A stretch of DNA of 64,000 nucleotides from Eledone cirrhosa (Eukaryota): positions 16,368,001 through 16,432,000 of the forward strand of contig OZ024761.1 of assembly GCA_964016885.1 (NCBI GenBank), given 5' to 3'. Positions 18,237 to 64,000 of this stretch are shown here, one piece after another. Each line of letters starts with the position of its first letter. The first letter of the stretch is position 1. The notes beneath the pieces were generated by a model. It made no database searches, had not been told where the DNA came from, and saw nothing but the letters and a program-made list of their open reading frames with translations. The position numbers and the translations under genes were made by a program.

Positions 18237-19295
18237 CTAATAATAAACAAAGTGGTCTACTAAATTGACAGAGGCCAATATGGAAGTAAGAGTTGTTTAA
18301 TCTTGGTCAGAATTGTCTTCCGTCAAGGTTAAGTCTCGCTTTCTCTCCTGTAAAATAAATAGGCTGTTTTTAGACCAGGAGAATGGGAGGATTGACTCAG
18401 TCAGATTTAAATGCACACATGACGGTAAATACGACAGTCCTACAACAATAGCTAAGTGTCTATAACAATCACGCATTTAAGTGACTGAAAACCTTACTAA
18501 TTTGTTTTTATTTTGGTACTTGAAAACAAAATTTAGAAAAAAATTATATATTTAATTTCACGTAAGTCAAATACAATGTATTTAAATGAATCTACAGATG
18601 GAGTTGCAATATCTGCCAAGACTTTAGAAATAGTGAAATATATAATTTTTTTAAATTAAAACTACTTTTCAAAGGAATAATAAACACACACATACATACA
18701 TACATACATATCTAGTGGAGATATTTCTGAGATTGGAAACCCTATCGATGTATGTATTTTGTCACTGAAAAGTTATCAAAAAATTATTATTATATATACA
18801 TATGTGTGTTTATGATGTAAGTAAAATGAATCCATATATGAGGTTTTCGATACCTGCCAGAGCTTATGAATTAGTAAAATAATATTTTTTCTTTTTTTTC
18901 AATTATGTCAAACATCGTATGTGGTTCTTTATCAAAGAAATGCTAAAATAGATTTAAATATATGAAATTTGCGCAGTAGAATGACGGCCAATTGGTGGTA
19001 TCGCAGGTAGCGGAGGGGGAACTAAAAAGGTGGCTTCGAGATGATCGTAGCCCAGAAGTTAGTGACCATTCTTTAGATTAAAAAAATAAAACTTTTAAAT
19101 TTAAGATAAAGTAGAAGATCGAAACCCTATCACCAATCTATATACACTCAATTGATGCGTAGATACACCACAACTACCCACACGGCCACCTACAGACTAA
19201 CAAATACAGAGTGAAAATAAACACATTTAAAGCTATTTTATTATAAGACTGAAAATAAGTTTATATATGTAAATATTCAAAAGAAAATCACTTAA

Positions 19296-19360
19296 GTCTT
19301 TATAGTCTAGTGGTAAGACATAGGACTGGGGAATGCCGTGGTTAGATTTCGAATCAACTT
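19296..19360 (+). other. Degenerate tRNA-like / Pol III promoter head, present once per unit
   Basis: A-box-like TAGTCTAGTGG and B-box-like GATTTCGAATC about 42 nt downstream, followed by a T-run. No complete cloverleaf. Copies near 25527, 31787, 38092, 44383, 50690, 56985 and 63276. Confidence 0.45.
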
Positions 19361-21127
19361 ACAACATTAATTTTTTTTATCCTCACACTGTAAGGAATTT
19401 GCTAGATTTGAACACGTAGTCATACCATTTAAAGCTTTATTTTTCTCTCTCTGGTGGTAAGACAGTCAGCATATAAATAAACGTGCCATACCATTTAAAA
19501 CTTTATTTGGAGATAAGCCAAAGACACATAAATGCACCAAGTAGTAAACCCTTGATTTAACTTACTATGAAGATGAAGAATGTCTTAATATCAAAGTGAC
19601 GTTAAATTTAGGGGTCAATTTCATTGTTTGTAATTTACAGAAACACCTTAATATAATACAATGTACAGGATATATATGTCAGAATGAATAATTTTTATTT
19701 TCTTGTTCCGTCAAACCTTGCGTTTATTCTACACACACACGTCGAAACACTTGCTTGAGGTGGCTTTCTTAGTCGTAATGAGAAGTGTTGGCTTTGTGGA
19801 GATTGATACAACTTTGGGTGATGATACGAGGAGAGGCAAGCTTGTGGAAAGTGTCTTAGTGGAAGAGATGACATCAGATCAGTAACCTCCAAAGAGATGA
19901 AATTAGTGACTGAGATGCTATCATTGCATAGTTAAGAATATATATAACAGATATATACTATAAATTTAACAAATCAAACTACAGTTATACTCTAACACGG
20001 AAGACAAATAAAACTTTACCTCTATCATGCACGTCGTATCCAGTGTGTTGTTATAAAAAAACCGGTGAAACACTAAATATCCCACCAGTGTAGCGATTTT
20101 ATATTCTCTCTGCTTCATCGTACCACCCAGTAACATGAAACTGTATTCAAATCTCTGGGAGGTAGAATTACGTCGCTTTAAAATAAACACACTGGGGTCA
20201 GTTTGAATATTGATTTCATGTGAAAAATATATACATATTATGATTGTACTCCGAACTATCAATATTGAAACAATTCTAATGCGCCAATAAAATTTATATA
20301 TATATACAGCAACAGTGTTTTCGATCTTTCTTACTTTTTTATTCACATTCTACAGTCACTTTAACTCTGTAATAAAACCCAACACGAGACGAACGTTAAC
20401 TGCAGTTACCCACGAAATTAACGCACACACAAATGAATATTTATATACTACTAAAGTGTATGTAAAATTAAAAAATAAATACTTAAATTCTATGTATAAC
20501 TAAACATGCAATATGTTTTGTTGTAAAACACTAAATAATGATTTAAGAAACGATGTCAATCTTTTTGTAGTGAAAAACATTAATTTATGTGTGTGCATAT
20601 ATGCTCCATTTAAGACAGCGAAAAAACCAGTACCTCCTGCAAAGAATGCCAAACAGTTTAAGCCTCGGGGATACCGGTGTAACACTAATTAAGTTACCGG
20701 TGTTGATATTTCAGTTGAACCCTGCTTCAACAAACTCCCCGGTAATTTGAAATCGAGTTCAGAGTGAGGGGTGTAAAACAGAATTCTGTTTGGAAAATAG
20801 TAAATTCTAAACCTGCTAGAAATAGCAGCGAAATGTAATACTTTGGGTACGAGGTGCGACTGTCTTACCCCTTATTATATATATATATATGCGTAAGTAG
20901 ATTCACGGGTCGCGTCGGGAAGAAACCACAATAAATACAATGTACTCAATAGATTGGCACAGTATATATATATGTGTGTGTATACATATAAATATATGTG
21001 TGTGTGTATGTATATATACATATAAATACTTATATATATGCATACATATATGTATACACACACACATATATATATATATATTTGTGTATATATAGCTGTG
21101 TGTGTATTTCTATATATATAATTATTA

Positions 21128-21224
21128 GAGTTTAACTTTGCCTTTAATCCTTACGGGGTCGATAAAATAAAGTACCAGTAATGTACTGGGATAATTGCTG
21201 GCCTTGTGCCAAAAAGTAGAAACC
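21128..21224 (+). mobile_element. 5'-truncated SINE inserted only in unit 1
   Basis: Flanked by ATTATTA on both sides; all other units show the empty site ATAATTATTACTTAGG. Confidence 0.85.
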
Positions 21225-21301
21225 ATTATTACTTAGGTTCTAAGGAATATTCCGCGAATGTCGGGGTTTACTGTGTATATATATATATGTATATACATAT
21301 T

Positions 21302-21677
21302 TATTGCTTTCACTGTTATTTCTAGCATAAAAAAGAAAAACCGGAAGGGGAGAAAATTGAAAAACTTCTTCTTTTTCCCCCTCTAACTTTTCAAACAAAA
21401 GGAAATTTTATGTAAACAAAAACGACATTTTTGCCAAGAAAGATAACTCTTCTCTGACTTAAATCCAAAATTGGGATACAAAAAATTGCGGAATATTTTT
21501 TGTATCCCAATTTTGGATTTAAGTCAGAGAAGAGTTATCTTTCTTGGCAAAAATTTCGTTTTTGTTTACATAAAATTTCCTTTTGTTTGAAAAGTTAGAG
21601 GGGGAAAAAGAAGAAGTTTTTCAATTTTCTCCCCTTCCGGTTTTTTCTAGCGTATGCTAGAAATAGCAGTCAAAGTA

Positions 21678-21680
<3 letters not shown>
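21302..21680. repeat. ~380-bp foldback hairpin (MITE-like), unit 1
   Basis: Arms ~185 bp, near-perfect; ~10-nt loop TTGCGGAATA; TA-rich flanks. Confidence 0.95.
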
Positions 21681-21708
<28 letters not shown>

Positions 21709-22785
21709 TTTTTGTGACAATATATATAGTTTTAACGCTAAATTATTAACAACAATATATTGTATTTGTTTGCCTATTGGACGCATAAGACGCTCACTCG
21801 ATTTTAATTATATTTTACGTTGTATTTTGAGGTTTATAGGCATTTCTATGGACCACCTATAATATTCGCGGTTTTTCACTATTCTCGGGTTCTCTAGGAC
21901 TGTAAACCCCACGAATGCCGGGGGGTAACTGTATATGAATATATCGACTAATAATATACAGTATAATTGTACGAGTATGCATATACATAGCAATATATAT
22001 ACACTAATATATATACATGTCTAGACATATATGTACATATATATAGACACACATGTATATATATATATATATGCATGTATGTATATATGTACACATATAT
22101 ATACATATATATATATGCATGTATGTATATATGTATATATATATATATATATATATAGACATGTGTGTGTGTATGTACATTCTTAGGTATATACATATAT
22201 ATTTATACACACATACATACAAATATATATATTTCTATGAGTCACGGTTTATTACACATTGGAGACAGCGTGAGAGATTTAGCTTTCATTTTTAGCAGAT
22301 TTAGAAACTTCGCAAACGCTTTAATTTTTCTTATTGCCGGTACTCTGAACACGATTTGAAATGACTGGAGTGAGTTTATAAAAGGGTAAACTGAAATAGT
22401 TGCACCGGTAATATATTTAGTGTTACACCGTTATTGTCGAAACAATCTCTTTCGCATTCGTCTGCAAGAGGTAACGTTTTCTATGCCGTCTCTGGTAGTG
22501 TAGAACTGTAGGTTGACTTGCTTGGATTTTACAACTCTTTGTCAACGTGCATATTATTATTATATACTTTCAAACACACTTACATATATTATATTTATAA
22601 ACATATAGGATTTTACTAAGCTTTTATTCTTTCTAATGTGAAGAGATAGAAATAATAAGTTAAAACTAAAGTATAATGATATAACAACAGCATATAATAG
22701 TTTTCTCCACTTTATTGAGATGCAAACATTTTAAAGAAAAAACATGACGGTATAAGAAATATTTAATATCATAACATATAATATT

Positions 22786-23606
22786 TCAGGTAGGATGGTC
22801 GTTTCTCTTGTCTTCCACCTCCAGTTGTAGATTCTTCATGTCCTCTCTAGCCATAATTTTGTCGTCGACATATGCATAAGTTTGATTTCTTCTTGAATGA
22901 ATTGCAAATCTTGAGGTAGCCTTCTTGGTACATTTATTAGCTTTAATTCGTGTTTACACGGCTTGTAATAATTCGTACGTTTTTTACTTTAGATGAAACA
23001 TGTATATAAAAACTTCTGTGGCTTTGGTATACCTTTAAGTTTGATTTCAATAGAAAAATACTTACTGAACATGTGTAACACAATTATAACTGGATCTACT
23101 TAGTTCCTAGCCACTATAAAAAAATCTATTTGATAGAAGTTATTTCCTAGTTCTATGCACTGTCAATATCCCTTCTACTTTTTATATGCTTGTATTTGTT
23201 TAAGAAACATTCTCTGATTTAGAAACCACGATCTTCTCGCACCACCGTTGTAGTAATTCTTGTTAAATGTTTTGTCTGGTCTATTGTCAATAAGTGTCCT
23301 TGTTTTCTGATTATGAATAAAGTTAAGTGGTCTACTGAATTGTCTTAATTATTGCTAATTTATAAGTTTGTTTAACTGCCGATAACTTTTAAATCTATTT
23401 CTTAGGTTGCTTAGGCCTACAAATCTTATATCAGTGTCCCTCCTTTTGACACTTTCTACGAGTGAATCCTTAAATTGACATTTTATTTTGGGTTGTACTG
23501 CCTTATCCCACCTATAACAGCTAGAAGCAAATATAGTAAAAACAGGTCCTTGACTGTGGAGACGAATATGAGTTATGTTGAATATAATTGTTGAGGTTTA
23601 TTCAAT
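22786..23606 (-). pseudogene. Module A: degenerate coding exon of an unidentified secreted/membrane protein
   Basis: Acceptor ttttttcttctcttAG, then a mutated start (ATA) and IFVSTVKDLFLLYLLLAVIGG (signal-peptide-like). C-terminal block ...CKHELKLINVPRRLPQDLQFIQEEIKLM/VDDKIMAREDMKNLQLEVEDKRNDHPT*; multiple stops and frameshifts. Copies at about 29062-29870, 35329-36147, 41652-42458, 47925-48743, 54250-55056 and 60545-61351. Confidence 0.55.
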
Positions 23607-24149
23607 CTAAGAGAAGAAAAAATAAGTAAAGTGCAAAATTAACGTTTAAAGACAAAAGTATTTCTCTTTCTCTCTGGCAAAATAAATCTGCTGTTTTTAG
23701 ACCTAGAGGAGGGGAGGATTGACTCAGTCAGGTTTCAATGCCCACATGACGGAAATTACGGCACACCTACAACAACAGTTAAGTGTCTATAACCACCATG
23801 CATTTATGAGACTAAAAACCTTGCTAGTGTATTTTTATTTTGGTACAAAAGTTTTTAAATAATTTCATAAGTTTTAAATTCAAGTAAGTCCAATATAACG
23901 TATTTAAACGAATCTATAGATAGGATTTCAATATCTTCCAGAGCTTATGAAATAGTAAAACAATTTTTTTTTCTTTTCAATTATATCAAATACCATAAGT
24001 TGTTCTTTATTAAAGAAATGCTAAAATAGATTTAGTTAGTATGACTCTGAAATGTGTTCATAAACGGTAATGTTATGTTTTCCGTAGAGCCTGTCTGTCT
24101 TACAGTATGTTTACACACAATACATACATGCATATACATAAATTAATTG

Positions 24150-24486
24150 TTTATTAGCTATATTCATCTGTTTACACTCCTCGTAATAATTCGAGCGGTT
24201 TTGTTTTTGTTTTTTCTTCAGGAGAGACGTAGATAGAAAAACGTTCGTGGCTTTAGTATTGTTTAATTGCCGATAAATTTGAAATATATTTGTTAGGTTT
24301 CTTAGAACTACAAATCTTTCTTATGACACTTACTACGGAATAAATTCTTAGCTGGATACTTTACTTTGTGATTACTTTCCTCCCAAAGCCATAACAGCTT
24401 GAATCAGATGTAGCAAAAACTTGTGAAGACCGACATGAGTTATATTGAATATAAGTGTAGACGTAAAATATTTTTGTTTATTCAAT
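24150..24486 (-). pseudogene. Module B: shorter, internally deleted paralog of module A
   Basis: Same acceptor context (AG|ATTGAATAAAC) and intact ATG: MSVFT/FLLHLIQAVMALGG, with synonymous differences from A (TTA/TTG, TTG/CTG). Copies at about 30406-30742, 36690-37043, 43002-43338, 49286-49639, 55600-55936 and 61895-62231. Confidence 0.5.
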
Positions 24487-27401
24487 CTAAAGGGAAGGAA
24501 AAAGAAGCATAAGTCAAGTGCAAAATTAACGTTTAAAGGCATAAAGGTATCTCGCTTTCTCTCCTGTAAAACAAATAGGCTGTTTTTAGACCAGGAGGAT
24601 GGGAGGATTGACTCAGTCAGATTTAAATGCACACATGACGGTAAATACGACAGTCCTACAACAGTTAAGTGTCTATAACAACCATGCATTTAAGAGACTG
24701 AAAACCTTACTAATGTGTTTTTATTTTGGTATTTAAAAACAAATTATATATTTAATTTCCTGTAAGTCAAATACAATGTATTTAAATGAATCTACAGATG
24801 GAGTTGCAATATCTGCCAGGACTTTGGAAATAGGGAAATATATAATTTTTAAAATTAAAACTACTTTTCAAAGGAATAATAAAGATATATATACACACAC
24901 ACACACATCTCTAGTGGAGATATTTCTGAGATTGGAAACCCTATCGATGTATGTATTTTGTCACTGAAAAGTTATCAAAAAATTATTATTATATATACAT
25001 GTTTGTGTTTTTGACGTAAGTAAAACGAATCTATATACGAGATTTTCGATACCTGCCAGAGCTAATGAAATAGTAAAAGAATATTTTTATTTTTCAATTA
25101 TGTCAAACATCGTATGTGGTTCTTTATGAAAGAAATGCTAAAATAGATTTAAATATATGAAATTTGCACAGTAGAATTACGGCCGCTTGGCTGGCGTCTG
25201 GTAAAGTGGTGGTAGTGTAGGTTCGAGCGGAGGGGAAACTAAAAAGGTGGCTTCGAGATGATCGTGGCCCCGGGTAGCCCAGAAGATAGAGACCAATCTC
25301 TTAAATTAAAAAAAATTAAAATGTTTTAAACTTAAGATAAAGTAGAAGATCGAAACCCTATCTCCAAATCTATACACACTCAATTGATGCATAGATACAC
25401 CACAACTACCCACACGACCACCTACAGACCAACAAATACGGAGTGAAAATAAACATATTTAAAGCTATTTTATTGTTAGACTAAAAATAAGTTTATATAT
25501 GTAAATATTCAAAAGAAAATCACTTAAGTCTTTATAGTCTAGTGGTAAGACATAGGACTGGGGAATGCCGTGTTTGGATTTCGAATCAACTTAAAACATT
25601 ATTTTTTTTATCCTCACACTGTAAGGAATTTGCTTGATTTGAACACGTAGTCATACCATTTAAAGCTTTATTTTTCTCTTTCTAGTCGTAACACAGTCAG
25701 CATATAAATAAACGTGATTCACTTCAACACGTTGCCATACCATTTAAAACTTTATTTGGAGATGAGACAAAGACACATAAATACACTAAGTAGTAAACCC
25801 TTGATTTAACTTACTATGAAGATGAAGAATGTCTGTTAATATCAAAGTGACGTTAAATTTAGGGGTCACTTTCATTGTTTTTAATTTACAGAAACTCCTT
25901 AATATAATACAATGTATATATTAGAAGGAATATTTTTTATTTTCTTGTTCCGTCAAACCTTGCGTTTATTCTACACACACACACGTCGAAACACTTGCTT
26001 GAGGTGGCTTTCTTAGACATAATGAGAAGTGTTGGCTTTGTGGAGATTGATACAACTTTGGGTGATGTTACGAGGAGAGGCAAGGCTATGGAGAGTGTCT
26101 TAGTGGAAGAGATGATATCAGAGCAGTAACCTCCAAAGAGATGAAATTAGTGACTGAGATGCTATCATTGCATAGTTCAGAATATATATAACAAACATAT
26201 ACTATAAATTTAACAAGTCAAACTACAGTTATACTCTAACACGGAAGACAAATAAAACGTTACCTCTATCATGCACGTCGTATCCAGTGTGTTGTTATAA
26301 GAAAACCGGTGAAACACTAAATATGCCACCAGTGTAGCGATTTTATACTCTCTCTGCTTCATCGTACCACCCAGTAACATGAAACTGTGTTCAAATCCCT
26401 GGGAGGTAGAATTACGTCGCTTTAAATAAACACACTGGGGTCAGTTTGAATATTGATTTCATGTGAAAAATATATACATATTATGATTGTACTCCGAACT
26501 ATCAATATTGAAACAATTCTAATGCGCCAATAAAATTTATATATCTATACAGCAACAGTGTTTTCGATCTTTCTTACTTTTTTATTCACATTCTACAGTC
26601 ACTTTAACTCTGTAATAAAACCCAACACGAGACGAACGTTAGCTGCAGTTACCCACGAAATTAACGCACACACAAATGAATATATATATATATACTACTA
26701 AAATGTATTTAAAATTAAAAAATAAATGCTTAAATTCAATGTATAATTACACGTACAATATGTTTTGTTGTAAAACCCTAAATAATGATTTCAGAAATGA
26801 TGTCAATCTCTTTGTACGGAGATAAACATTAATTTAAGTATATGCATTGTGTGTGCGTATATACTCCATTTAAGACAGCGAAAAAGCCAGTACCTTCTTC
26901 GAAGAATGCCAAATAGTTTATGCCTCAGGGATACCGGTGTAACACTGATTAAATTACCGGTGTAGATATTTCAGTTGAACCCTGCTTCAACAAACTACCC
27001 GGTAATTTGAAATCGAGTTCAGAGTGAGGGGTGTAAAACAGAATTCTGTTTAGAAAATAGTAAATTCTAAACCTGCTAGAAATAATAGCCAAATGTCGTA
27101 CTTTGGGTACGAGGTGCGACTCGTCTTACCTCTTCTAATATATATATATATATATGTGTGTGTGTAGATTCACGGGTCGCGGCGGAGAGAAACCACAATA
27201 AATACAATGTACTCAATAGATTGGCATAGTATATATATATGTGTGTGTACATATAAATATGTGTGTGTGTGTATGTATATATATATATGTATAAATGTAT
27301 ATATACATATAAATACTTATATATATATATATATACATAAACATGTGTATACATACACACATATATAAATAAATATGTATGTATATATATATATCTGTGT
27401 G

Positions 27402-27439
<38 letters not shown>

Positions 27440-27482
27440 TTACTTAGGTTCTAAGGAATATTCCGCGAATGTCGGGGTTTAT

Positions 27483-27519
<37 letters not shown>

Positions 27520-27530
27520 ATATACATATT

Positions 27531-27911
27531 TATTACTTTCACTGTTATTTCTAGCATAAAAAAGAAAAACCGGAAGGGGAGAAAATTGAAAAACTTCTTC
27601 TTTTTCCCTCCTCTAACTTTTCAAACAAAAGGAAATTTTATGTAAACAAAAACGAAATTTTTGCCAAGAAAGATAACTCTTCTCTGACTTAAATCCAAAA
27701 TTGGGATACAAAAAAAATTCCGCCAGTTTTTGTATCCCAATTTTGGATTTAAGTCAGAGAAGAGTTATCTTTCTTGGCAAAAATTTCGTTTTTGTTTACA
27801 TAAAATTTCCTTTTGTTTGAAAAGTTAGAGGAGGGAAAAAGAAGAAGTTTTTCAATTTTCTCCACTTCCCGTTTTTTCTAGTGTATACTAGAAATAGCAG
27901 TCAAAGCAATA
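27531..27911. repeat. ~380-bp foldback hairpin, unit 2
   Basis: Same element; loop TTCCGCCAG. Confidence 0.95.
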
Positions 27912-28254
27912 TATATATGCCTTTTGTGACAAAATATATTGTTTTAATGCTAGATTATTAACAACAATATATTGTATTTGTTGGCCTATTGGACGCAGAA
28001 GACGCTCACTCGATTTTTATTATATTTTACGTTGTATTTTGAGGTTTATAGACATTTCTATGGACCACCTACAATATTCGCGGTTTTTCATTATTCTCGG
28101 GTTCTCTAGGACTGTAAACCCCACGAATGCCGGGGGGTAACTGTATATGAATATATCGACTGATAATATACAGTATAATTGTATGAGTATGCATATACAT
28201 AGCAATATATATACATATTTACACATATATGTACATATATATATATAGACACAC

Positions 28255-28297
<43 letters not shown>

Positions 28298-28299
28298 TG

Positions 28300-28330
<31 letters not shown>

Positions 28331-28381
28331 GCATGTATGTATATATGTATACATATATATATATATGAATGTCTGTATATA

Positions 28382-28439
<58 letters not shown>

Positions 28440-31131
28440 TAGACATGTGTGTGTGTGTACATTCTTAGGTATATACATATATATTTATACACACATACAT
28501 ACAAATATATATATTTCTATGAGTCACAGTTTATTTCACATTGGAGACAGAGTGAGAGATTTAGCTTTCATTTTTAGCAGATTTAGAAACTTTGCAAACG
28601 CTTTATTTTTTCTTATTGCCGGTACTCTGAACACGATTTGAAATGACTGGAGTGAGTTTATAAAAGGGTAAACTGAAATAGTTGCACCGGTAATATATTT
28701 AGTGTTACACCGGTATTTTCGAAACAGTCTCTTTCGTCTGCAAGAGGTAACGTTTTCTATGCCGTCTCTGTTAGTGTAGAACTGTAGGTTGACTTGCTTG
28801 GTTTTTACAACTCTTTGTCAACATGCATATTATTATTATAAACTTTCAAACACACTTACATATATTTTATTTATAAACATATAGGATTTTACTAAGTTTT
28901 TATTCTTTCTAATGTGAAGAGATAGAAATAATAAGTTAAAACTAAAGTATAATGATATAACAACTGTATATAATAGTTTTCTCCCCTTTATTGAGATGCA
29001 AACGTTTTAAAGAAAAAACATGACGGTATAAGAAATATTTAATATCGTAACATATAATATTTCAGGTAGGATGGTCGTTTCTCTTGTCTTCCACCTCTAG
29101 TTGTAGATTCTTCATGTCCTCTCTAGCCATAATTATGTCGTCGACATATTCATATTCTTGAATGAATTGCAAATCATAAGGTAGCCTTCTTGGTACATTT
29201 ATTAGCTTTAATTCGTGTTTACACTGCTTGTAATAATTCGTACGTTTTTTTACTTTAGATGAAACATATATATAAAAACGTCTGTGGCTTTAGTATACCT
29301 TTAAGTTTGATTTCAATAGAAAAATATTTACTGAACATGTGTAACACAATTATAACTGGAGCTACTAAGTTCCTAGCCACTAGAAAATCTATTTGATAGA
29401 AGTTATTTCCTAGTTCTATGCACTGTCAATATCCCTTCTACTTTTTATATGCTTGTGTTTGTTAAAGAAACATTCTCTGATTTTAGAAACCACGTTCTTC
29501 TCGCACCACCGTTGTAGTAATTCTTGTTAAATGTTTTGTCTGGTCTATTGTCAATAAGTGTCCTTGTTTTCTGATTATGAATAAAGTTAAGTGGTCTACT
29601 GAATTGTCTTAATTATTGCTAATTTATAAGTTTGTTTAACTGCCGATAACTTTTAAATCTATTTCTTAGGTTGCTTAGGCCTACAAATCTTATATCAGTG
29701 TCCCTTCTTTTGACACTTTCTACGAGTGAATCCTTAAATTGACATTTTATTTTGGGTTGTACTGCCTTATCCCACCTATAACAGCTAGAAGCAAATATAG
29801 TAAAAACAGGTCCTTGACTGTGGAGACGAATATGAGTTATGTTGAATATAATTGTTGAGGTTTATTCAATCTAAGAGAAGAAAAAATAAGTAAAGTGCAA
29901 AATTAACGTTTAAAGACAAAAGTATTTCTCTTTCTCTCTGGCAAAATAAATCTGCTGTTTTTAGACCTAGAGGAGGGGAGGATTGACTCAGTCAGGTTTC
30001 AATGACGGTAATTACGGCACCCCTACAACAACAGTTAAGTGTCTATAACCACCATGCATTTATGAGACTAAAAACCTTGCTAGTGTATTTTTATTTTGGT
30101 ACAAAAGTTTTTAAATAATTTCATAAGTTTTAAATTCAAGTAAGTCCAATATAACGTATTTAAACGAATCTATAGATAGGATTTCAATATCTTCCAGAGC
30201 TTATGAAATAGTAAAACAATTTTTTTTTCTTTTCAATTATATCAAATACCATAAGTTGTTCTTTATTAAAGAAATGCTAAAATAGATTTAGTTAGTATGA
30301 CTCTGAAATGTGTTCATAAACGGTAATGTTATGTTTTCCGTAGAGACTGTCTGTCTTACAGTATGTTTACACACAATACATACATGCATATACATAAATT
30401 AATTGTTTATTAGCTATATTCATCTGTTTACACACCTCGTAATAATTCGAGCGGTTTTGTTTTTGTTTTTTCTTCAGGAGAGACGTAGATAGAAAAACGT
30501 TCGTGGCTTTAGTATTGTTTAATTGCCGATAAATTTGAAATATATTTGTTAGGTTTCTTAGAACTACAAATCTTTCTTATGACACTTACTACGGAATAAA
30601 TTCTTAGCTGGATACTTTACTTTGTGATTACTTTCCTCCCAAAGCCATAACAGCTTGAATGAGATGTAGCAAAAACTTGTGAAGACTGACATGAGTTATG
30701 TTGAATATAAGTGTAGACGTAAAATATTTTTGTTTATTCAATCTAAAGAATTTTAAGTCAAGTGCAAAATTAATGTTTAAAGGCATAAGAAAGGTATCTC
30801 GCTTTCTCTCCTGTAAAACAAATAGGCTGTTTTTAGACCAGGAGGATGGGAGGATTGACTCAGTCAGATTTAAATGCACACATGACGGTAAATACGACAG
30901 TCCTACAACAGTTAAGTGTCTATAACAACCATGCATTTAAGAGACTGAAAACCTTACTAATGTGTTTTTATTTTGGTATTTAAAAACAAATTATATATTT
31001 AATTTCATGTAAGTCAAATACAATGTATTTAAATGAATCTACAGATGGAGTTGCAATATCTGCCAGGACTTTGGAAATAGAGAAATATATAATTTTTAAA
31101 ATTAAAACTACTTTTCAAAGGAATAATAAAG

Positions 31132-31166
<35 letters not shown>

Positions 31167-33660
31167 TCTCTAGTGGAGATATTTCTGAGATTGGAAACCC
31201 TATCGATGTATGTATTTTGTCACTGAAAAGTTATCAAAAATTTATTATTATATATACATGTTTGTGTTTTTGACGTAAGTAAAACGAATCTATATACGAG
31301 ATTTTCGATACCTGCCAGAGCTAATGAAATAGTAAAAGAATATTTTTATTTTTCAATTATGTCAAACATCGTATGTGGTTCTTTATTAAAGAAATGCTAA
31401 AATGGATTTAAAGATATGAAATTTGCACAGTAGAATTACGGCCGCTTGGCTGGCGTCTGGTAAAGTGGTGGTAGTGTAGGTTCGAGCGGAGGGGAAACTA
31501 AAAAGGTGGCTTCGAGATGATCGTGGCCCCGGGTAGCCCAGAAGATAGAGACCAATCTCTTAAATTAAAAAAAATTAAAATGTTTTAAACTTAAGATAAA
31601 GTAGAAGATCGAAACCCTATCTCCAAATCTATACACACTCAATTGATGCATAGATACACCACAACTACCCACACGACCACCTACAGACCAACAAATACGG
31701 AGTGAAAATAAACACATTTAAAGCTATTTTATTGTTAGACTAAAAATAAGTTTATATATGTAAATATTCAAAAGAAAATCACTTAAGTCTTTATAGTCTA
31801 GTGGTAAGACATAGGACTGGGGAATGTCGTGTTTGGATTTCGAATCAACTTAAAACATTATTTTTTTTATCCTCACACTGTAAGGAATTTGCTTGATTTG
31901 AACACGTAGTCATACCATTTAAAGCTTTATTTTTCTCTTTCTAGTCGTAACACAGTCAGCATATAAATAAACGTGATTCACTTCAACACGTTGCCATACC
32001 ATTTAAAACTTTATTTGGAGATGAGACAAAGACACATAAATACACCAAGTAGTAAACCCTTGATTTAACTTACTATGAAGATGAAGAATGTCTGTTAATA
32101 TCAAAGTGACGTTAAATTTAGGGGTCACTTTCATTGTTTTTAATTTACAGAAACTCCTTAATATAATACAATGTATATATTAGAAGGAATATTTTTTATT
32201 TTCTTGTTCCGTCAAACCTTGCGTTTATTCTACACACACACACGTCGAAACACTTGCTTGAGGTGGCTTTCTTAGACATAATGAGAAGTGTTGGCTTTGT
32301 GGAGATTGATACAACTTTGGGTGATGTTACGAGGAGAGGCAAGGCTATGGAGAGTGTCTTAGTGGAAGAGATGATATCAGAGCAGTAACCTCCAAAGAGA
32401 TGAAATTAGTGACTGAGATGCTATCATTGCATAGTTCAGAATATATATAACAAACATATACTATAAATTTAACAAGTCAAACTACAGTTATACTCTAACA
32501 CGGAAGACAAATAAAACGTTACCTCTATCATGCACGTCGTATCCAGTGTGTTGTTATAAGAAAACCGGTGAAACACTAAATATGCCACCAGTGTAGCGAT
32601 TTTATACTCTCTCTGCTTCATCGTACCACCCAGTAACATGAAACTGTGTTCAAATCCCTGGGAGGTAGAATTACGTCGCTTTAAATAAACACACTGGGGT
32701 CAGTTTGAATATTGATTTCATGTGAAAAATATATACATATTATGATTGTACTCCGAACTATTAATATTGAAACAATTCTAATGCGCCAATAAAATTTATA
32801 TATCTATACAGCAACAGTGTTTTCGATCTTTCTTACTTTTTTATTCACATTCTACAGTCACTTTAACTCTGTAATAAAACCCAACACGAGACGAACGTTA
32901 GCTGCAGTTACCCACGAAATTAACGCACACACAAATGAATATATATATATATACTACTAAAATGTATTTAAAATTAAAAAATAAATGCTTAAATTCAATG
33001 TATAATTACACGTACAATATGTTTTGTTGTAAAACCCTAAATAATGATTTCAGAAATGATGTCAATCTCTTTGTACGGAGATAAACATTAATTTAAGTAT
33101 ATGCATTGTGTGTGCGTATATACTCCATTTAAGACAGCGAAAAAGCCAGTACCTTCTTCGAAGAATGCCAAATAGTTTATGCCTCAGGGATACCGGTGTA
33201 ACACTGATTAAATTACCGGTGTAGATATTTCAGTTGAACCCTGCTTCAACAAACTACCCGGTAATTTGAAATCGAGTTCAGAGTGAGGGGTGTAAAACAG
33301 AATTCTGTTTAGAAAATAGTAAATTCTAAACCTGCTAGAAATAATAGCCAAATGTCGTACTTTGGGTACGAGGTGCGACTCGTCTTACCTCTTCTAATAT
33401 ATATATATATATATGTGTGTGTGTAGATTCACGGGTCGCGGCGGAGAGAAACCACAATAAATACAATGTACTCAATAGATTGGCATAGTATATATATATG
33501 TGTGTGTACATATAAATATGTGTGTGTGTGTATGTATATATATATATGTATAAATGTATATATACATATAAATACTTATATATATATATATATACATAAA
33601 CATGTGTATACATACACACATATATAAATAAATATGTATGTATATATATATATCTGTGTG

Positions 33661-33700
<40 letters not shown>

Positions 33701-33743
33701 TTACTTAGGTTCTAAGGAATATTCCGCGAATGTCGGGGTTTAT

Positions 33744-33780
<37 letters not shown>

Positions 33781-33791
33781 ATATACATATT

Positions 33792-34172
33792 TATTACTTT
33801 CACTGTTATTTCTAGCATAAAAAAGAAAAACCGGAAGGGGAGAAAATTGAAAAACTTCTTCTTTTTCCCTCCTCTAACTTTTCAAACAAAAGGAAATTTT
33901 ATGTAAACAAAAACGAAATTTTTGCCAAGAAAGATAACTCTTCTCTGACTTAAATCCAAAATTGGGATACAAAAAAAATTCCGCCAGTTTTTGTATCCCA
34001 ATTTTGGATTTAAGTCAGAGAAGAGTTATCTTTCTTGGCAAAAATTTCGTTTTTGTTTACATAAAATTTCCTTTTGTTTGAAAAGTTAGAGGAGGTAAAA
34101 AGAAGAAGTTTTTCAATTTTCTCCACTTCCCGTTTTATCTAGTGTATACTAGAAATAGCAGTCAAAGCAATA
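33792..34172. repeat. ~380-bp foldback hairpin, unit 3
   Basis: Same element; loop TTCCGCCAG. Confidence 0.95.
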
Positions 34173-34515: not shown

Positions 34516-34564
<49 letters not shown>

Positions 34565-34566
34565 TG

Positions 34567-34597
<31 letters not shown>

Positions 34598-34648
34598 GCA
34601 TGTATGTATATATGTATACATATATATATATATGAATGTCTGTATATA

Positions 34649-34700
<52 letters not shown>

Positions 34701-47244: not shown

Positions 47245-47296
<52 letters not shown>

Positions 47297-52306: not shown

Positions 52307-52338
<32 letters not shown>

Positions 52339-52687
52339 AGATTCACGGGTCGCTGCGGAGAGAAACCACAATAAATACAATGTACTCAATAGATTGGCAT
52401 AGTATATATATATGTGTGTGTACATATAAATATGTGTGTGTGTGTGTATGTATATATATATATGTATAAATGTATATATACATATAAATACTTATATATA
52501 TATATATACATAAACATATGTATACATACACACATATATAAATAAATATGTATGTATATATATATATCTGTGTGTCTATTTATATATATATATATATATA
52601 TATAATTATTACTTAGGTTCTAAGGAATATTCCGCGAATGTCGGGGTTTAATGTGTATATATATATATATATGTGTATATACATATT

Positions 52688-53067
52688 TATTACTTTCACT
52701 GTTATTTCTAGCATAAAAAAGAAAAACCGGAAGGGGAGAAAATTGAAAAACTTCTTCTTTTTCCCTCCTCTAACTTTTCAAACAAAAGGAAATTTTATGT
52801 AAACAAAAACGAAATTTTTGCCAAGAAAGATAACTCTTCTCTGACTTAAATCCAAAATTGGGTTACAAAAAAATTCCGCAATTTTTTGTATCCCAACTTT
52901 GGATTTAAGTCAGAGAAGAGTTATCTTTCTTGGCAAAAATTTCGTTTTTGTTTACATAAAATTTCCTTTTGTTTGAAAAGTTAGAGGAGGGAAAAAGAAG
53001 AAGTTTTTCAATTTTCTCCACTTCCCGTTTTTTCTAGTGTATACTAGAAATAGCAGTCAAAGCAATA
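52688..53067. repeat. ~380-bp foldback hairpin, unit 6
   Basis: Same element; loop ATTCCGCAA. Confidence 0.95.
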
Positions 53068-53438
53068 TATATATGCCTTTTGTGACAATATATATTGTTT
53101 TAACGCTAGATTATTAACAACAATATATTGTATTTGTTGGCCTATTGGACGCAGAAGACGCTCACTCGATTTTTATTATATTTTACGTTGTATTTTGAGG
53201 TTTATAGGCATTTCTATGGACCACCTACAATATTCGCGGTTTTTCACTATTCTCGGGTTCTCTAGGACTGTAAACCCCACGAATGCCGGGGGGTAACTGT
53301 ATATGAATATATCGACTGATAATATACAGTATAATTGTACGAGTATGCATATACATAGCAATATATATACATATTTACACATATATGTACATATATATAT
53401 ATAGACACACATGTATATATATATATATATAGACACAC

Positions 53439-53481
<43 letters not shown>

Positions 53482-53537
53482 TGTATGTATATATGTATAC
53501 ATATATATATATATGAATGTCTGTATATATGTACATA

Positions 53538-53619
<82 letters not shown>

Positions 53620-56325: not shown

Positions 56326-56365
<40 letters not shown>

Positions 56366-58601
56366 CTCTAGTGGAGATATTTCTGAGATTGGAAACCCTA
56401 TCGATGTATGTATTTTGTCACTGAAAAGTTATCAAAAAATTATTATTATATATACATGTTTGTGTTTTTGACGTAAGTAAAACGAATCTATATACGAGAT
56501 TTTCGATACCTGCCAGAGCTAATGAAATAGTAAAAGAATATTTTTATTTTTCAATTATGTCAAACATCGTATGTGGTTCTTTATTAAAGAAATGCTAAAA
56601 TGGATTTAAAGATATGAAATTTGCACAGTAGAATTACGGCCGCTTGGCTGGCGTCTGGTAAAGTGGTGGTAGTGTAGGTTCGAGCGGAGGGGAAACTAAA
56701 AAGGTGGCTTCGAGATGATCGTGGCCCCGGGTAGCCCAGAAGATAGAGACCAATCTCTTAAATTAAAAAAAATTAAAATGTTTTAAACTTAAGATAAAGT
56801 AGAAGATCGAAACCCTATCTCCAAATCTATACACACTCAATTGATGCATAGATACACCACAACTACCCACACGACCACCTACAGACCAACAAATACGGAG
56901 TGAAAATAAACACATTTAAAGCTATTTTATTGTTAGACTAAAAATAAGTTTATATATGTAAATATTCAAAAGAAAATCACTTAAGTCTTTATAGTCTAGT
57001 GGTAAGACATAGGACTGGGGAATGTCGTGTTTGGATTTCGAATCAACTTAAAACATTATTTTTTTTATCCTCACACTGTAAGGAATTTGCTTGATTTGAA
57101 CACGTAGTCATACCATTTAAAGCTTTATTTTTCTCTTTCTAGTCGTAACACAGTCAGCATATAAATAAACGTGATTCACTTCAACACGTTGCCATACCAT
57201 TTAAAACTTTATTTGGAGATGAGACAAAGACACATAAATACACTAAGTAGTAAACCCTTGATTTAACTTACTATGAAGATGAAGAATGTCTGTTAATATC
57301 AAAGTGACGTTAAATTTAGGGGTCACTTTCATTGTTTTTAATTTACAGAAACTCCTTAATATAATACAATGTATATATTAGAAGGAATATTTTTTATTTT
57401 CTTGTTCCGTCAAACCTTGCGTTTATTCTACACACACACACACGTCGAAACACTTGCTTGAGGTGGCTTTCTTAGACATAATGAGAAGTGTTGGCTTTGT
57501 GGAGATTGATACAACTTTGGGTGATGTTACGAGGAGAGGCAAGGCTATGGAGAGTGTCTTAGTGGAAGAGATGATATCAGAGCAGTAACCTCCAAAGAGA
57601 TGAAATTAGTGACTGAGATGCTATCATTGCATAGTTCAGAATATATATAACAAACATATACTATAAATTTAACAAGTCAAACTACAGTTATACTCTAACA
57701 CGGAAGACAAATAAAACGTTACCTCTATCATGCACGTCGTATCCAGTGTGTTGTTATAAGAAAACCGGTGAAACACTAAATATGCCACCAGTGTAGCGAT
57801 TTTATACTCTCTCTGCTTCATCGTACCACCCAGTAACATGAAACTGTGTTCAAATCCCTGGGAGGTAGAATTACGTCGCTTTAAATAAACACACTGGGGG
57901 TCAGTTTGAATATTGATTTCATGTGAAAAATATATACATATTATGATTGTACTCCGAACTATTAATATTGAAACAATTCTAATGCGCCAATAAAATTTAT
58001 ATATCTATACAGCAACAGTGTTTTCGATCTTTCTTACTTTTTTATTCACATTCTACAGTCACTTTAACTCTGTAATAAAACCCAACACGAGACGAACGTT
58101 AGCTGCAGTTACCCACGAAATTAACTCACTCACAAATGAATATATATATATATATATACTACTAAAATGTATTTAAAATTAAAAAATAAATGCTTAAATT
58201 CAATGTATAATTTCACGTACAATATGTTTTGTTGTAAAACCCTAAATAATGATTTCAGAAATGATGTCAATCTCTTTGTACAGAGATAAACATTAATTTA
58301 TGTATATGCATTGTGTGTGCGTATATACTCCATTTAAGACAGCGAAAAAGCCAGTACCTTCTTCGAAGAATGCCAAATAGTTTATGCCTCAGGGATACCG
58401 GTGTAACACTAATTAAGTTACCGGTGTAGATATTTCAGTTGAACCCTGCTTCAACAAACTACCCGGTAATTTGAAATCGAGTTCAGAGTGAGGGGTGTAA
58501 AACAGAATTCTGTTTGGAAAATAGTAAATTCTAAACCTGCTAGAAATAATAGCCAAATGTCGTATTTTGGGTACGAGGTGCGACTCGTCTTACCTCTTCT
58601 A

Positions 58602-58633
<32 letters not shown>

Positions 58634-58982
58634 AGATTCACGGGTCGCTGCGGAGAGAAACCACAATAAATACAATGTACTCAATAGATTGGCATAGTAT
58701 ATATATATGTGTGTGTACATATAAATATGTGTGTGTGTGTGTATGTATATATATATATGTATAAATGTATATATACATATAAATACTTATATATATATAT
58801 ATACATAAACATATGTATACATACACACATATATAAATAAATATGTATGTATATATATATATCTGTGTGTCTATTTATATATATATATATATATATATAA
58901 TTATTACTTAGGTTCTAAGGAATATTCCGCGAATGTCGGGGTTTAATGTGTATATATATATATATATGTGTATATACATATT

Positions 58983-59362
58983 TATTACTTTCACTGTTAT
59001 TTCTAGCATAAAAAAGAAAAACCGGAAGGGGAGAAAATTGAAAAACTTCTTCTTTTTCCCTCCTCTAACTTTTCAAACAAAAGGAAATTTTATGTAAACA
59101 AAAACGAAATTTTTGCCAAGAAAGATAACTCTTCTCTGACTTAAATCCAAAATTGGGTTACAAAAAAATTCCGCAATTTTTTGTATCCCAACTTTGGATT
59201 TAAGTCAGAGAAGAGTTATCTTTCTTGGCAAAAATTTCGTTTTTGTTTACATAAAATTTCCTTTTGTTTGAAAAGTTAGAGGAGGGAAAAAGAAGAAGTT
59301 TTTCAATTTTCTCCACTTCCCGTTTTTTCTAGTGTATACTAGAAATAGCAGTCAAAGCAATA
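58983..59362. repeat. ~380-bp foldback hairpin, unit 7
   Basis: Same element; loop ATTCCGCAA. Confidence 0.95.
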
Positions 59363-59733
59363 TATATATGCCTTTTGTGACAATATATATTGTTTTAACG
59401 CTAGATTATTAACAACAATATATTGTATTTGTTGGCCTATTGGACGCAGAAGACGCTCACTCGATTTTTATTATATTTTACGTTGTATTTTGAGGTTTAT
59501 AGGCATTTCTATGGACCACCTACAATATTCGCGGTTTTTCACTATTCTCGGGTTCTCTAGGACTGTAAACCCCACGAATGCCGGGGGGTAACTGTATATG
59601 AATATATCGACTGATAATATACAGTATAATTGTACGAGTATGCATATACATAGCAATATATATACATATTTACACATATATGTACATATATATATATAGA
59701 CACACATGTATATATATATATATATAGACACAC

Positions 59734-59776
<43 letters not shown>

Positions 59777-59832
59777 TGTATGTATATATGTATACATATA
59801 TATATATATGAATGTCTGTATATATGTACATA

Positions 59833-59914
<82 letters not shown>

Positions 59915-62620
59915 CATAGACATGTGTGTGTGTGTACATTCTTAGGTATATACATATATATTTATACACACATACATACAAATATATATATTTCTATGAG
60001 TCACAGTTTATTACACATTGGAGACAGAGTGAGAGATTTAGCTTTCATTTTTAGCAGATTTAGAAACTTTGCAAACGCTTTATTTTTTCTTATTGCCGGT
60101 ACTCTGAACACGATTTGAAATGACTGGAGTGAGTTTATAAAAGGGTAAACTGAAATAGTTGCACCGGTAATATATTTAGTGTTACACCGGTATTTTCGAA
60201 ACAGTCTCTTTCGCATTCGTCTGCAAGAGGTAACGTTTTCTATGCCGTCTCTGTTAGTGTAGAACTGTAGGTTGACTTGCTTGGTTTTTACAACTCTTTG
60301 TCAACATGCATATTATTATTATATACTTTCAAACACACTTACATATATTATATTTATAAACATATAGGATTTTACTAAGTTTTTATTCTTTCTAATGTGA
60401 AGAGATAGAAATAATAAGTTAAAACTAAAGTATAATGATATAACAACTGTATATAATAGTTTTCTCCCCTTTATTGAGATGCAAACGTTTTAAAGAAAAA
60501 ACATGACAGTATAAGAAATATTTAATATCATAACATATAATATTTCAGGTAGGATGGTCGTTTCTCTTGTCTTCCACCTAGTTGTAGATTCTTCATGTCC
60601 TCTCTAGCCATAATTATGTCGTCGACATATTCATATTCTTGAATGAATTGCAAATCATAAGGTAGCCTTCTTGGTACATTTATTAGCTTTAATTCGTGTT
60701 TACACTGCTTGTAATAATTCGTACGTTTTTTTACTTTAGATGAAACATATATATAAAAACGTCTGTGGCTTTAGTATACCTTTAAGTTTGATTTCAATAG
60801 AAAAATATTTACTGAACATGTGTAACACAATTATAACTGGAGCTACTAAGTTCCTAGCCACTAGAAAATCTATTTGATAGAAGTTATTTCCTAGTTCTAT
60901 GCACTGTCAATATCCCTTCTACTTTTTATATGCTTGTGTTTGTTAAAGAAACATTCTCTGATTTTAGAAACCACGTTCTTCTCGCACCACCGTTGTAGTA
61001 ATTCTTGTTAAATGTTTTGTCTGGTCTATTGTCAATAAGTGTCCTTGTTTTCTGATTATGAATAAAGTTAAGTGGTCTACTGAATTGTCTTAATTATTGC
61101 TAATTTATAAGTTTGTTTAACTGCCGATAACTTTTAAATCTATTTCTTAGGTTGCTTAGGCCTACAAATCTTATATCAGTGTCCCTTCTTTTGACACTTT
61201 CTACGAGTGAATCCTTAAATTGACATTTTATTTTGGGTTGTACTGCCTTATCCCACCTATAACAGCTAGAAGCAAATATAGTAAAAACAGGTCCTTGACT
61301 GTGGAGACGAATATGAGTTATGTTGAATATAATTGTTGAGGTTTATTCAATCTAAGAGAAGAAAAAATAAGTAAAGTGCAAAATTAACGTTTAAAGACAA
61401 AAGTATTTCTCTTTCTCTCTGGCAAAATAAATCTGCTGTTTTTAGACCTAGAGGAGGGGAGGATTGACTCAGTCAGGTTTCAATGCCCACATGACGGTAA
61501 TTACGGCACCCCTACAACAACAGTTAAGTGTCTATAACCACCATGCATTTATGAGACTAAAAACCTTGCTAGTGTATTTTTATTTTGGTACAAAAGTTTT
61601 TAAATAATTTCATAAGTTTTAAATTCAAGTAAGTCCAATATAACGTATTTAAACGAATCTATAGATAGGATTTCAATATCTTCCAGAGCTTATGAAATAG
61701 TAAAACAATTTTTTTTTCTTTTCAATTATATCAAATACCATAAGTTGTTCTTTATTAAAGAAATGCTAAAATAGATTTAGTTAGTATGACTCTGAAATGT
61801 GTTCATAAACGGTAATGTTATGTTTTCCGTAGAGACTGTCTGTCTTACAGTATGTTTACACACAATACATACATGCATATACATAAATTAATTGTTTATT
61901 AGCTATATTCATCTGTTTACACACCTCGTAATAATTCGAGCGGTTTTGTTTTTGTTTTTTCTTCAGGAGAGACGTAGATAGAAAAACGTTCGTGGCTTTA
62001 GTATTGTTTAATTGCCGATAAATTTGAAATATATTTGTTAGGTTTCTTAGAACTACAAATCTTTCTTATGACACTTACTACGGAATAAATTCTTAGCTGG
62101 ATACTTTACTTTGTGATTACTTTCCTCCCAAAGCCATAACAGCTTGAATGAGATGTAGCAAAAACTTGTGAAGACTGACATGAGTTATGTTGAATATAAG
62201 TGTAGACGTAAAATATTTTTGTTTATTCAATCTAAAGAATTTTAAGTCAAGTGCAAAATTAATGTTTAAAGGCATAAGAAAGGTATCTCGCTTTCTCTCC
62301 TGTAAAACAAATAGGCTGTTTTTAGACCAGGAGGATGGGAGGATTGACTCAGTCAGATTTAAATGCACACATGACGGTAAATACGACAGTCCTACAACAG
62401 TTAAGTGTCTATAACAACCATGCATTTAAGAGACTGAAAACCTTACTAATGTGTTTTTATTTTGGTATTTAAAAACAAATTATATATTTAATTTCATGTA
62501 AGTCAAATACAATGTATTTAAATGAATCTACAGATGGAGTTGCAATATCTGCCAGGACTTTGGAAATAGAGAAATATATAATTTTTAAAATTAAAACTAC
62601 TTTTCAAAGGAATAATAAAG

Positions 62621-62655
<35 letters not shown>

Positions 62656-64000
62656 TCTCTAGTGGAGATATTTCTGAGATTGGAAACCCTATCGATGTAT
62701 GTATTTTGTCACTGAAAAGTTATCAAAAATTTATTATTATATATACATGTTTGTGTTTTTGACGTAAGTAAAACGAATCTATATACGAGATTTTCGATAC
62801 CTGCCAGAGCTAATGAAATAGTAAAAGAATATTTTTATTTTTCAATTATGTCAAACATCGTATGTGGTTCTTTATTAAAGAAATGCTAAAATGGATTTAA
62901 AGATATGAAATTTGCACAGTAGAATTACGGCCGCTTGGCTGGCGTCTGGTAAAGTGGTGGTAGTGTAGGTTCGAGCGGAGGGGAAACTAAAAAGGTGGCT
63001 TCGAGATGATCGTGGCCCCGGGTAGCCCAGAAGATAGAGACCAATCTCTTAAATTAAAAAAAATTAAAATGTTTTAAACTTAAGATAAAGTAGAAGATCG
63101 AAACCCTATCTCCAAATCTATACACACTCAATTGATGCATAGATACACCACAACTACCCACACGACCACCTACAGACCAACAAATACGGAGTGAAAATAA
63201 ACACATTTAAAGCTATTTTATTGTTAGACTAAAAATAAGTTTATATATGTAAATATTCAAAAGAAAATCACTTAAGTCTTTATAGTCTAGTGGTAAGACA
63301 TAGGACTGGGGAATGTCGTGTTTGGATTTCGAATCAACTTAAAACATTATTTTTTTTATCCTCACACTGTAAGGAATTTGCTTGATTTGAACACGTAGTC
63401 ATACCATTTAAAGCTTTATTTTTCTCTTTCTAGTCGTAACACAGTCAGCATATAAATAAACGTGATTCACTTCAACACGTTGCCATACCATTTAAAACTT
63501 TATTTGGAGATGAGACAAAGACACATAAATACACTAAGTAGTAAACCCTTGATTTAACTTACTATGAAGATGAAGAATGTCTGTTAATATCAAAGTGACG
63601 TTAAATTTAGGGGTCACTTTCATTGTTTTTAATTTACAGAAACTCCTTAATATAATACAATGTATATATTAGAAGGAATATTTTTTATTTTCTTGTTCCG
63701 TCAAACCTTGCGTTTATTCTACACACACACACGTCGAAACACTTGCTTGAGGTGGCTTTCTTAGACATAATGAGAAGTGTTGGCTTTGTGGAGATTGATA
63801 CAACTTTGGGTGATGTTACGAGGAGAGGCAAGGCTATGGAGAGTGTCTTAGTGGAAGAGATGATATCAGAGCAGTAACCTCCAAAGAGATGAAATTAGTG
63901 ACTGAGATGCTATCATTGCATAGTTCAGAATATATATAACAAACATATACTATAAATTTAACAAGTCAAACTACAGTTATACTCTAACACGGAAGACAAA

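What the first reader, a model, noticed from the sequence alone, without database searches (positions are those of the whole stretch)
18334..64000. 6.3-kb macrosatellite combining a long hairpin, a Pol III-like head, TIR-bounded cargo and pseudogene modules: candidate small-RNA/regulatory array
Seen: at least 7.3 highly homogeneous tandem units with no intact ORF and no rRNA, histone or snRNA gene. Each holds a ~380-bp hairpin, a tRNA-like A/B-box segment, two decayed gene copies with conserved upstream blocks, and hAT-like ends. Inference: a recently amplified locus that could produce hairpin endo-siRNAs/piRNAs or lncRNA matching a gene family and MITEs. Neutral amplification is the alternative, and function is not demonstrated.
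Basis: partly seen in the sequence, partly recalled or inferred. Interest (0 to 1): 0.75.

Follow-up and report, generated by a model that had tools for sequence, protein, structure and literature searches.

The report
Non-coding macrosatellite with collapsed palindrome
This is a real run of about 12 near-identical 6.3-kb non-coding repeats from a family with over 100 copies on one mollusc chromosome; its long hairpin is likely the shrunken centre of an old mirror-image duplication, and the array is likely ordinary repeat turnover rather than a small-RNA factory.

Summary
The array is real: 7.3 units in the window, about 11.7 in all (74 kb), one of about 11 arrays of a family with at least 108 (roughly 140) units on contig C22 of a mollusc genome. 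Units cluster by array, with divergent edge units. The 371-bp hairpin (137-bp perfect stem) and three worn TATA/A-box/B-box heads are present. 'Pseudogenes' and 'hAT-like ends' are not supported: no protein match, no codon constraint, no TIR plus target duplication. Older 6.9/7.1-kb arrays amplify with a single arm, and two solitary copies keep the arms about 480-710 bp apart, so the hairpin likely arose by loss of the centre of an old inverted duplication. The arm belongs to a dispersed ~300-bp element (573 core matches) that lies at mirror centres in three separate lineages; it is the slowest-changing part of the unit, which is unexplained. Hairpin endo-siRNA is unlikely because two papers report that molluscs lack the dedicated pathway. 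Expression is untested. The scan noted the tRNA-like cassette family before on other DNA of this genome, but not this array.

The parts
18334..64000 (.). Macrosatellite array, 7.3 units in the window; continues to about G000:C22:16,460,100 (about 11.7 units, 74 kb)
18401..24616 (.). Unit 1, divergent edge unit (273-288 substitutions from inner units); lacks the head-1 boxes
24617..30863 (.). Unit 2, reference unit used for the coordinates below (6247 bp, 30% GC)
25150..25240 (+). Worn tRNA-like head 1; A-box start to B-box start 21 nt here versus 43 and 51 nt in the older subfamilies
25340..25480 (-). Worn tRNA-like head 2, back to back with head 3
25480..25610 (+). tRNA-like head 3: TATA-like block, A box, non-canonical B box, T run; member of a dispersed cassette family
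26214..26400 (+). ACCGGT block B (third copy of a ~200-bp non-coding module)
26880..28800 (.). Old inverted duplication: outer ACCGGT blocks A (26880-27105) and C (28548-28800) about 71% alike, AT microsatellite tracts, and the central hairpin
27536..27906 (.). Hairpin: two arms of dispersed element E, 137-bp perfect stem, 12-nt loop, 30% GC; copies at 21307, 33797, 40095, 46393, 52693, 58988
29632..30211 (.).
30515..31080 (.). Internal direct duplicate 2, 73% like duplicate 1; no coding signal
17178..18083 (.). Older, SINE-interrupted fragment of the same unit just left of the array (74-82% alike)

Best explanation
The array is a non-coding composite macrosatellite whose units are most alike within each array, likely amplified and homogenised by unequal crossing-over without selection for an RNA product. 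Shown: the unit is a mosaic of internal duplications, three worn tRNA-derived heads and an old inverted duplication centred on a dispersed ~300-bp element; older subfamilies carry one arm, and two solitary copies carry both arms about 480-710 bp apart. Inferred: (1) a fold-back at the element's tail made the inverted duplication; (2) loss of the centre brought the arms to a 12-nt loop in the 6.3-kb lineage; (3) occasional arm-to-arm DNA conversion re-polishes the stem while it decays in other arrays; (4) unit blocks were re-seeded at new sites on C22 and each expanded in place. How the seeding happened is not shown.
For: Tree of 51 unit segments groups units by array with edge units outside; a recent two-unit duplication (U3=U5, U4=U6=U7, 1-3 differences). 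No target duplication of 5 bp or more at the array ends and only short hits, read as common repeats, shared between 17 array flanks. Single-arm 6.9/7.1-kb arrays and spaced-arm copies. 32 distinct hairpins: 0-10 arm mismatches, 4 of 32 perfect, 10 derived states shared by both arms versus 54 one-sided; G-U 15 versus A-C 7, p=0.13. No coding constraint: synonymous share 0.17-0.36 in all 48 frame-by-region tests, 0.17-0.28 in the four main ORF frames; indels divisible by 3 in 27 of 106 and 25 of 100. Head 3 diverges at background rate, 10 of 71 sites; no strict A+B pair in any of 8 family units scanned. Molluscan genome (haemocyanin); endo-siRNA machinery reported lost in molluscs.
Against: The arm is the least or joint-least diverged segment in 5 of 6 older lineages (0.07-0.08 versus mostly 0.10-0.25; 15 of 180 and 13 of 179 sites), and short blocks are kept across three deep groups of the element: this could be constraint rather than conversion. 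Shared changes in both arms are also what selection on a duplex would leave. A 25-mer over the head-3 A box is identical in 108 units of several subfamilies. Expression was not examined.
Confidence: 0.7

Rival explanations
1. The arrays are transcribed and serve as a piRNA source or as Pol III small-RNA gene clusters (4.5SH/snaR-like), the RNAs matching the hundreds of dispersed element and cassette copies.
For: Three heads with TATA-like block and A/B-like boxes per unit; the cassette's upstream block has 493 exact genome matches; piRNAs are widespread in molluscs (PMC6128900); 4.5SH genes lie in 4-5 kb tandem repeats and snaR genes in tandem arrays.
Against: Boxes are non-canonical, head 1 is shortened or lost in the youngest arrays, head 3 is not better kept than its surroundings; no active transposon sequence was recognised in the unit.
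Confidence: 0.15
2. The arm is a functional protein-binding element (a transposon end or a promoter-like block) whose fold-back or cruciform form actively drives breakage and re-seeding of arrays.
For: Slowest-changing segment; ETS-, forkhead- and NFI-like words (names recalled) in 4, 6 and 6 of 6 homologues tested; mirror symmetry around the element in three deep groups with largely unrelated flanks; the hairpin lineage is the youngest and largest.
Against: Arrays without the hairpin also spread (four arrays); both ETS-like words depart from consensus in window unit 2; no autonomous partner or target duplication was found; the 24 loci were picked partly because they looked inverted and had no random control.
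Confidence: 0.1
3. The hairpin is a dedicated endo-siRNA (hpRNA) precursor against a gene family.
For: 137-bp perfect stem, z -35.8; mild, non-significant G-U excess on the + strand.
Against: DICER2 and siAGO reported lost and endo-siRNAs not detected in molluscs; one Dicer-dimerisation locus found among 7 candidates in this genome, a weak exon-wise test; no gene target; stems carry 7-9 mismatches in the 17.7-Mb array.
Confidence: 0.04
4. The array is an assembly artefact of one or two copies.
For: Some units are nearly identical (1-3 differences), so the exact count may be off.
Against: Array-specific variants and about 11 separate arrays; 795-930 contigs per run, most 90-95% alike, cover all 30 bins of 28520-33390 in three runs of one sample, possibly the assembly's own.
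Confidence: 0.01

Closest known systems
Complex and TE-derived macrosatellites (Drosophila R1 and Bari1 arrays, D4Z4; PMC5932611, abstract and outline seen)
   Same: Multi-kb units in homogenised tandem arrays built from repeat debris
   Different: The unit is a mosaic of several small relics and internal duplications, not one transposon; no ORF such as D4Z4's (recalled)
Tetris foldback element of Drosophila virilis (PMC4079207, abstract and outline seen)
   Same: Non-autonomous modular element with inverted repeats and many rearranged forms, shared with a MITE, feeding satellite arrays
   Different: Here the mirror symmetry runs on into different flanking DNA in each lineage, and no transposon termini or target duplication were found
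HINEs, non-autonomous Helentrons of the oyster (PMC7492417, abstract and passages seen)
   Same: The full element has a short motif plus its complement at one end and a third copy at the other end, like subTIR/IR; linked to tandem repeats in a mollusc
   Different: Microsatellite lies outside, no 3' palindrome next to the subTIR, no central tandem repeats; the window keeps only the inner 180-bp part
Rodent 4.5SH RNA repeats (PMC10137851, passages) and primate snaR arrays (PMC3045588, passages)
   Same: Type-2 Pol III boxes with an upstream TATA-like block inside multi-kb tandem repeats
   Different: Boxes here are worn and not better kept than the rest; no transcript is known
Human palindromic AT-rich repeats (PATRRs) in low-copy repeats (search listing only; features recalled)
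   Same: A few hundred bases of AT-rich near-perfect palindrome inside duplicated DNA
   Different: Here in every unit of tandem arrays; cruciform formation and breakage are untested

Membership tests
Macrosatellite (complex tandem repeat under concerted evolution) | Multi-kb head-to-tail units at high identity | tested here: met
   6.2-6.3 kb, 11 complete units, 1-75 substitutions among inner units
Macrosatellite (complex tandem repeat under concerted evolution) | Units more alike within than between arrays, divergent edges | tested here: met
   Tree of 51 segments; edge units fall outside the array clade
Macrosatellite (complex tandem repeat under concerted evolution) | Copy-number variation between individuals | not testable with these tools
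   Only one sample held
hAT element or hAT-MITE | Short TIRs flanked by an 8-bp target duplication | tested here: not met
   All hits lie in AT microsatellite; none at array ends
hAT element or hAT-MITE | Transposase or its relic | tested here: not met
   No Pfam match over cut-off in 12 read-through frames
Protein-coding pseudogene | Homology to a protein, or codon-shaped divergence | tested here: not met
   one 80-aa frame found no homologue
tRNA gene | Cloverleaf recognised by ARAGORN or Rfam | tested here: not met
   0 tRNAs in 20 loci of the cassette family
Pol III type-2 small-RNA gene array (4.5SH/snaR-like) | A and B boxes at working distance with TATA-like block and T run | tested here: inconclusive
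   Degenerate boxes present; no strict pair in 8 family units; head 1 spacing 21 nt
Pol III type-2 small-RNA gene array (4.5SH/snaR-like) | Discrete transcript | not testable with these tools
   No RNA holder listed
hpRNA / endo-siRNA locus | Long fold-back able to form a duplex | tested here: met
hpRNA / endo-siRNA locus | Dicer-2/siAGO pathway and phased 21-22 nt reads | tested here: inconclusive
   One Dicer-dimerisation locus (weak); pathway reported absent in molluscs; no reads available
piRNA cluster | 24-31 nt reads with 1U and ping-pong signature | not testable with these tools
   No small-RNA run listed
HINE (non-autonomous Helentron), for element E | 5' subTIR with complementary IR and a 3' subTIR | tested here: inconclusive
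   Motif layout fits in several C18/C4 copies, spacer about 14-16 nt versus 1-12 in oyster
HINE (non-autonomous Helentron), for element E | 3' palindrome after the subTIR, internal microsatellite, insertion into oligo-T | tested here: not met
   No adjacent palindrome; microsatellite lies outside (by eye); empty sites not found

The most novel reading that the evidence does not exclude
An undescribed ~300-bp dispersed element seeds mirror-image duplications at its tail again and again; once collapsed to an AT-rich palindrome it promotes breakage and re-seeding of its own macrosatellite along one chromosome, and read-through transcripts of the arrays feed piRNAs or long dsRNA back onto its several hundred copies.
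Probability: 0.15. Interest if true: 0.65.

Novelty: new member of a known kind. Interest (0 to 1): 0.3.

Why it matters
As ordinary turnover it is one more composite macrosatellite in a genome where this scan has noted many, but it preserves a rare series of states (single arm, spaced arms, tight hairpin, decaying and re-polished stems) that shows how a satellite hairpin likely arises without selection. If the arm is under constraint or drives its own spread, it would name a palindrome-seeding element and give a testable case of what molluscs, reported to lack endo-siRNAs, do with long fold-back RNA.

Tried and rejected
Expression: no RNA holder listed (3 runs, one study, kind not on record). 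Contigs of those runs were laid on 28520-33390 only, so the hairpin and its flanks were not seen in raw data; none of the 15 joints shown (of 27) had GT..AG ends, and depth there is no copy number. Coding origin: six-frame reading, Pfam on 12 frames with X at stops (one hit, DUF5804, E 8e-4, below cut-off), own-genome search with a 75-aa frame (150 matches; the 8 fetched and the array positions point to copies of the repeat, longest open frame listed 165 aa with stops inside), homologue search for one 80-aa frame only. The ESM Atlas gave no answer. Known RNA: Rfam on window, unit and 8 loci. Zinc-finger promoter idea for the arm: no finger ORFs in 20 loci of the sister family. Real tRNA arrays behind the TATA block: none in 20 loci. 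A by-eye likeness of the ACCGGT block to the C26 palindrome family was not supported by profile search. Shared flanking segmental duplications between arrays: only short common repeats. Covariation of the heads' fold was not tested. Literature: no paper on this family in searches; PMC6128900 passages hold no tandem-repeat clusters, against my recollection. No supplements were read.

Full report
Setting. The window is G000:C22:16,368,001-16,432,000 in a 3.0-Gb genome. Haemocyanin beta-sandwich domains (39 matches, 0 of 14 controls) show a mollusc. Earlier scan notes call it an octopus; I did not test that.

The array. Twenty-mers recur at 6.2-6.3 kb from 18334 onward. With the adjacent stretches there are 11 complete units plus partial ends, about 74 kb. 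Inner units differ by 1-75 substitutions, unit 1 by 273-288; U3=U5 and U4=U6=U7 point to a recent two-unit duplication. The left end starts inside a module next to an older, SINE-interrupted fragment; the right end stops at a microsatellite; no target duplication of 5 bp or more was found.

The family. The same unit forms arrays on C22 near 15.1-15.2, 16.4, 17.0-17.1, 17.7, 18.2, 18.9 and 30.5-30.7 Mb, and older 6.9/7.1-kb versions near 6.6, 7.1, 8.0 and 27.0-27.2 Mb, with solitary copies at 13.1 and 14.1 Mb and on C24. An exact 25-mer has 108 matches, 0 in the control, the 100 listed all on C22. From array spans I estimate about 100 young and about 37 old units; this is my tally, not a tool count. 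A tree of 51 segments groups units by array with edge units outside. Contigs of three runs from one sample cover all 30 bins of 28520-33390 with many variants, so the repeat exists in raw data; that sample may be the assembly's own.

No gene. Outside microsatellites the longest frame is 105 aa (127 aa in unit 1). Twelve read-through frames gave no Pfam match over cut-off; the one frame searched against the protein collection found nothing. Against five older copies the synonymous share of substitutions is 0.17-0.36 in all 48 frame-by-region tests and 0.17-0.28 in the four main ORF frames (about a quarter is the neutral value, recalled). Indels divisible by three are 27 of 106 and 25 of 100. 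The 73% duplicate pair is real but non-coding. hAT-like ends fail: all TIR-plus-TSD hits fall in AT repeats, and the inverted ACCGGT block occurs three times per unit without discrete ends, although its core is specific (219 matches, 0 control).

The heads. Profile searches with 28 unit segments hit a second repeat family clearly with 5 segments (three covering the heads, two the arms), weakly with 2 more, and the reversed control once. The heads belong to a TATA-block + A-box + B-box cassette whose upstream 26-mer has 493 exact matches, the first 100 on 12 contigs; ARAGORN finds no tRNA in 20 such loci. Earlier scan notes describe this cassette family. In this unit the heads are worn: no strict A+B pair in 8 family units (and in only 1 of 3 units of the second family), head 1 spacing cut from 43-51 to 21 nt and lost in unit 1, head 3 diverging at 10 of 71 sites, like its surroundings.

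The hairpin. Arms 27536-27906 fold at -259 kcal/mol, z -35.8; the perfect stem is 137 bp in unit 2, 108 in units 3 and 5, 58 in unit 1 (one search listed 4 of 7). It is the centre of a wider inverted duplication whose outer blocks are 71% alike. The 6.9/7.1-kb arrays have one arm and no hairpin; the 13.1- and 14.1-Mb copies have both arms about 480-710 bp apart. Among 32 distinct hairpins (47 copies, some loci overlapping) arms differ at 0-10 of 134 columns; 10 derived states are shared by both arms and 54 are one-sided; of 54 mismatch types 15 are G-U, 7 A-C, 24 other, 8 indels (p=0.13). Decay with sporadic re-polishing fits DNA-level conversion; selection on a duplex is not excluded.

The element behind the arm. 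A 22-mer core has 573 matches; the first 100 lie on C1, C4, C11, C17 (1 each), C18 (38), C20 (28) and C22 (30). Full copies are about 300 bp, bounded by a repeated short motif, often with an inverted copy of it at the tail. They form three deep groups (support 100/100, 96/90, 93/92). In each group copies sit at mirror centres: this family; multi-kb palindromes on C26; tail-to-tail pairs and fold-backs on C17 and C18; and a 65-bp fold-back in 4.5-kb arrays. Of 24 loci examined 19 had some symmetric match, 14 by my reading involving the element, and 5 none; the loci were not picked at random and there was no control. The arm is the least or joint-least diverged segment in 5 of 6 older lineages. 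This is the main point that the neutral reading does not explain; conversion among hundreds of copies or a bound protein are both open.

Small RNA. PMC11114477 (abstract and passages) reports loss of DICER2 and siAGO in molluscs, while allowing that the miRNA machinery might process some dsRNA; PMC12479628 (passages) finds no endo-siRNAs in molluscs but many piRNAs. One Dicer-dimerisation locus was found among 7 candidates here, a weak test. Expression could not be examined.

Comparison and verdict. It works like other composite macrosatellites and foldback-fed satellites (PMC5932611, PMC4079207: abstracts and outlines). The element resembles a HINE in part (PMC7492417, abstract and passages) but fails two features. 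The heads recall 4.5SH and snaR arrays (passages) without evidence of a transcript. Searches found no description of this family, and the scan had no note on this array. Verdict: new member of a known kind, neutral turnover 0.70, interest 0.3.

Noticed in passing
window:666-832 (-): U2 snRNA copy with deletions and a worn 3' end (96.5 bits), probably a pseudogene
   Followed up: no
window:327-594, 13606-13820, 13978-14305: Three further fold-backs left of the array (83-98% arm identity), one with an internal 77-bp tandem duplication; long hairpins are common here
   Followed up: no
window:7162-7361: 200-base assembly gap followed by two ~1.9-kb AT microsatellite tracts (7362-9167, 11660-13596)
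   Followed up: no
L080:3543-3770, L105:3385-3555, L084: 4.5-4.6-kb arrays on C18, C26 and C1777 (by period also C20 and C22:10.77 Mb) carry the arm with a 65-bp terminal fold-back, TA-flanked and MITE-like, beside four tRNA-like cassettes
   Followed up: partly
L111:3576-7210, L138, L142: Three C26 copies of a ~3.6-kb non-coding palindrome centred on the same element, inner 1.3 kb about 95% symmetric
   Followed up: partly
L123-L129, L136: The TATA + tRNA-like cassette recurs in 10-30 kb tandem blocks, several near contig ends on C8, C10 and C13, with LINE fragments
   Followed up: partly
L126:3171-4454, L137:8052-8628: Helitron-type helicase fragments (recognised by eye) lie within a few kb of the cassette
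   Followed up: no
L048:5299-5562: A lone ACCGGT block on C7 sits among retrotransposon frames, away from any array
   Followed up: no
L140, L141: Haemocyanin genes occur as three tandem copies on C1 and an inverted pair on C26
   Followed up: no
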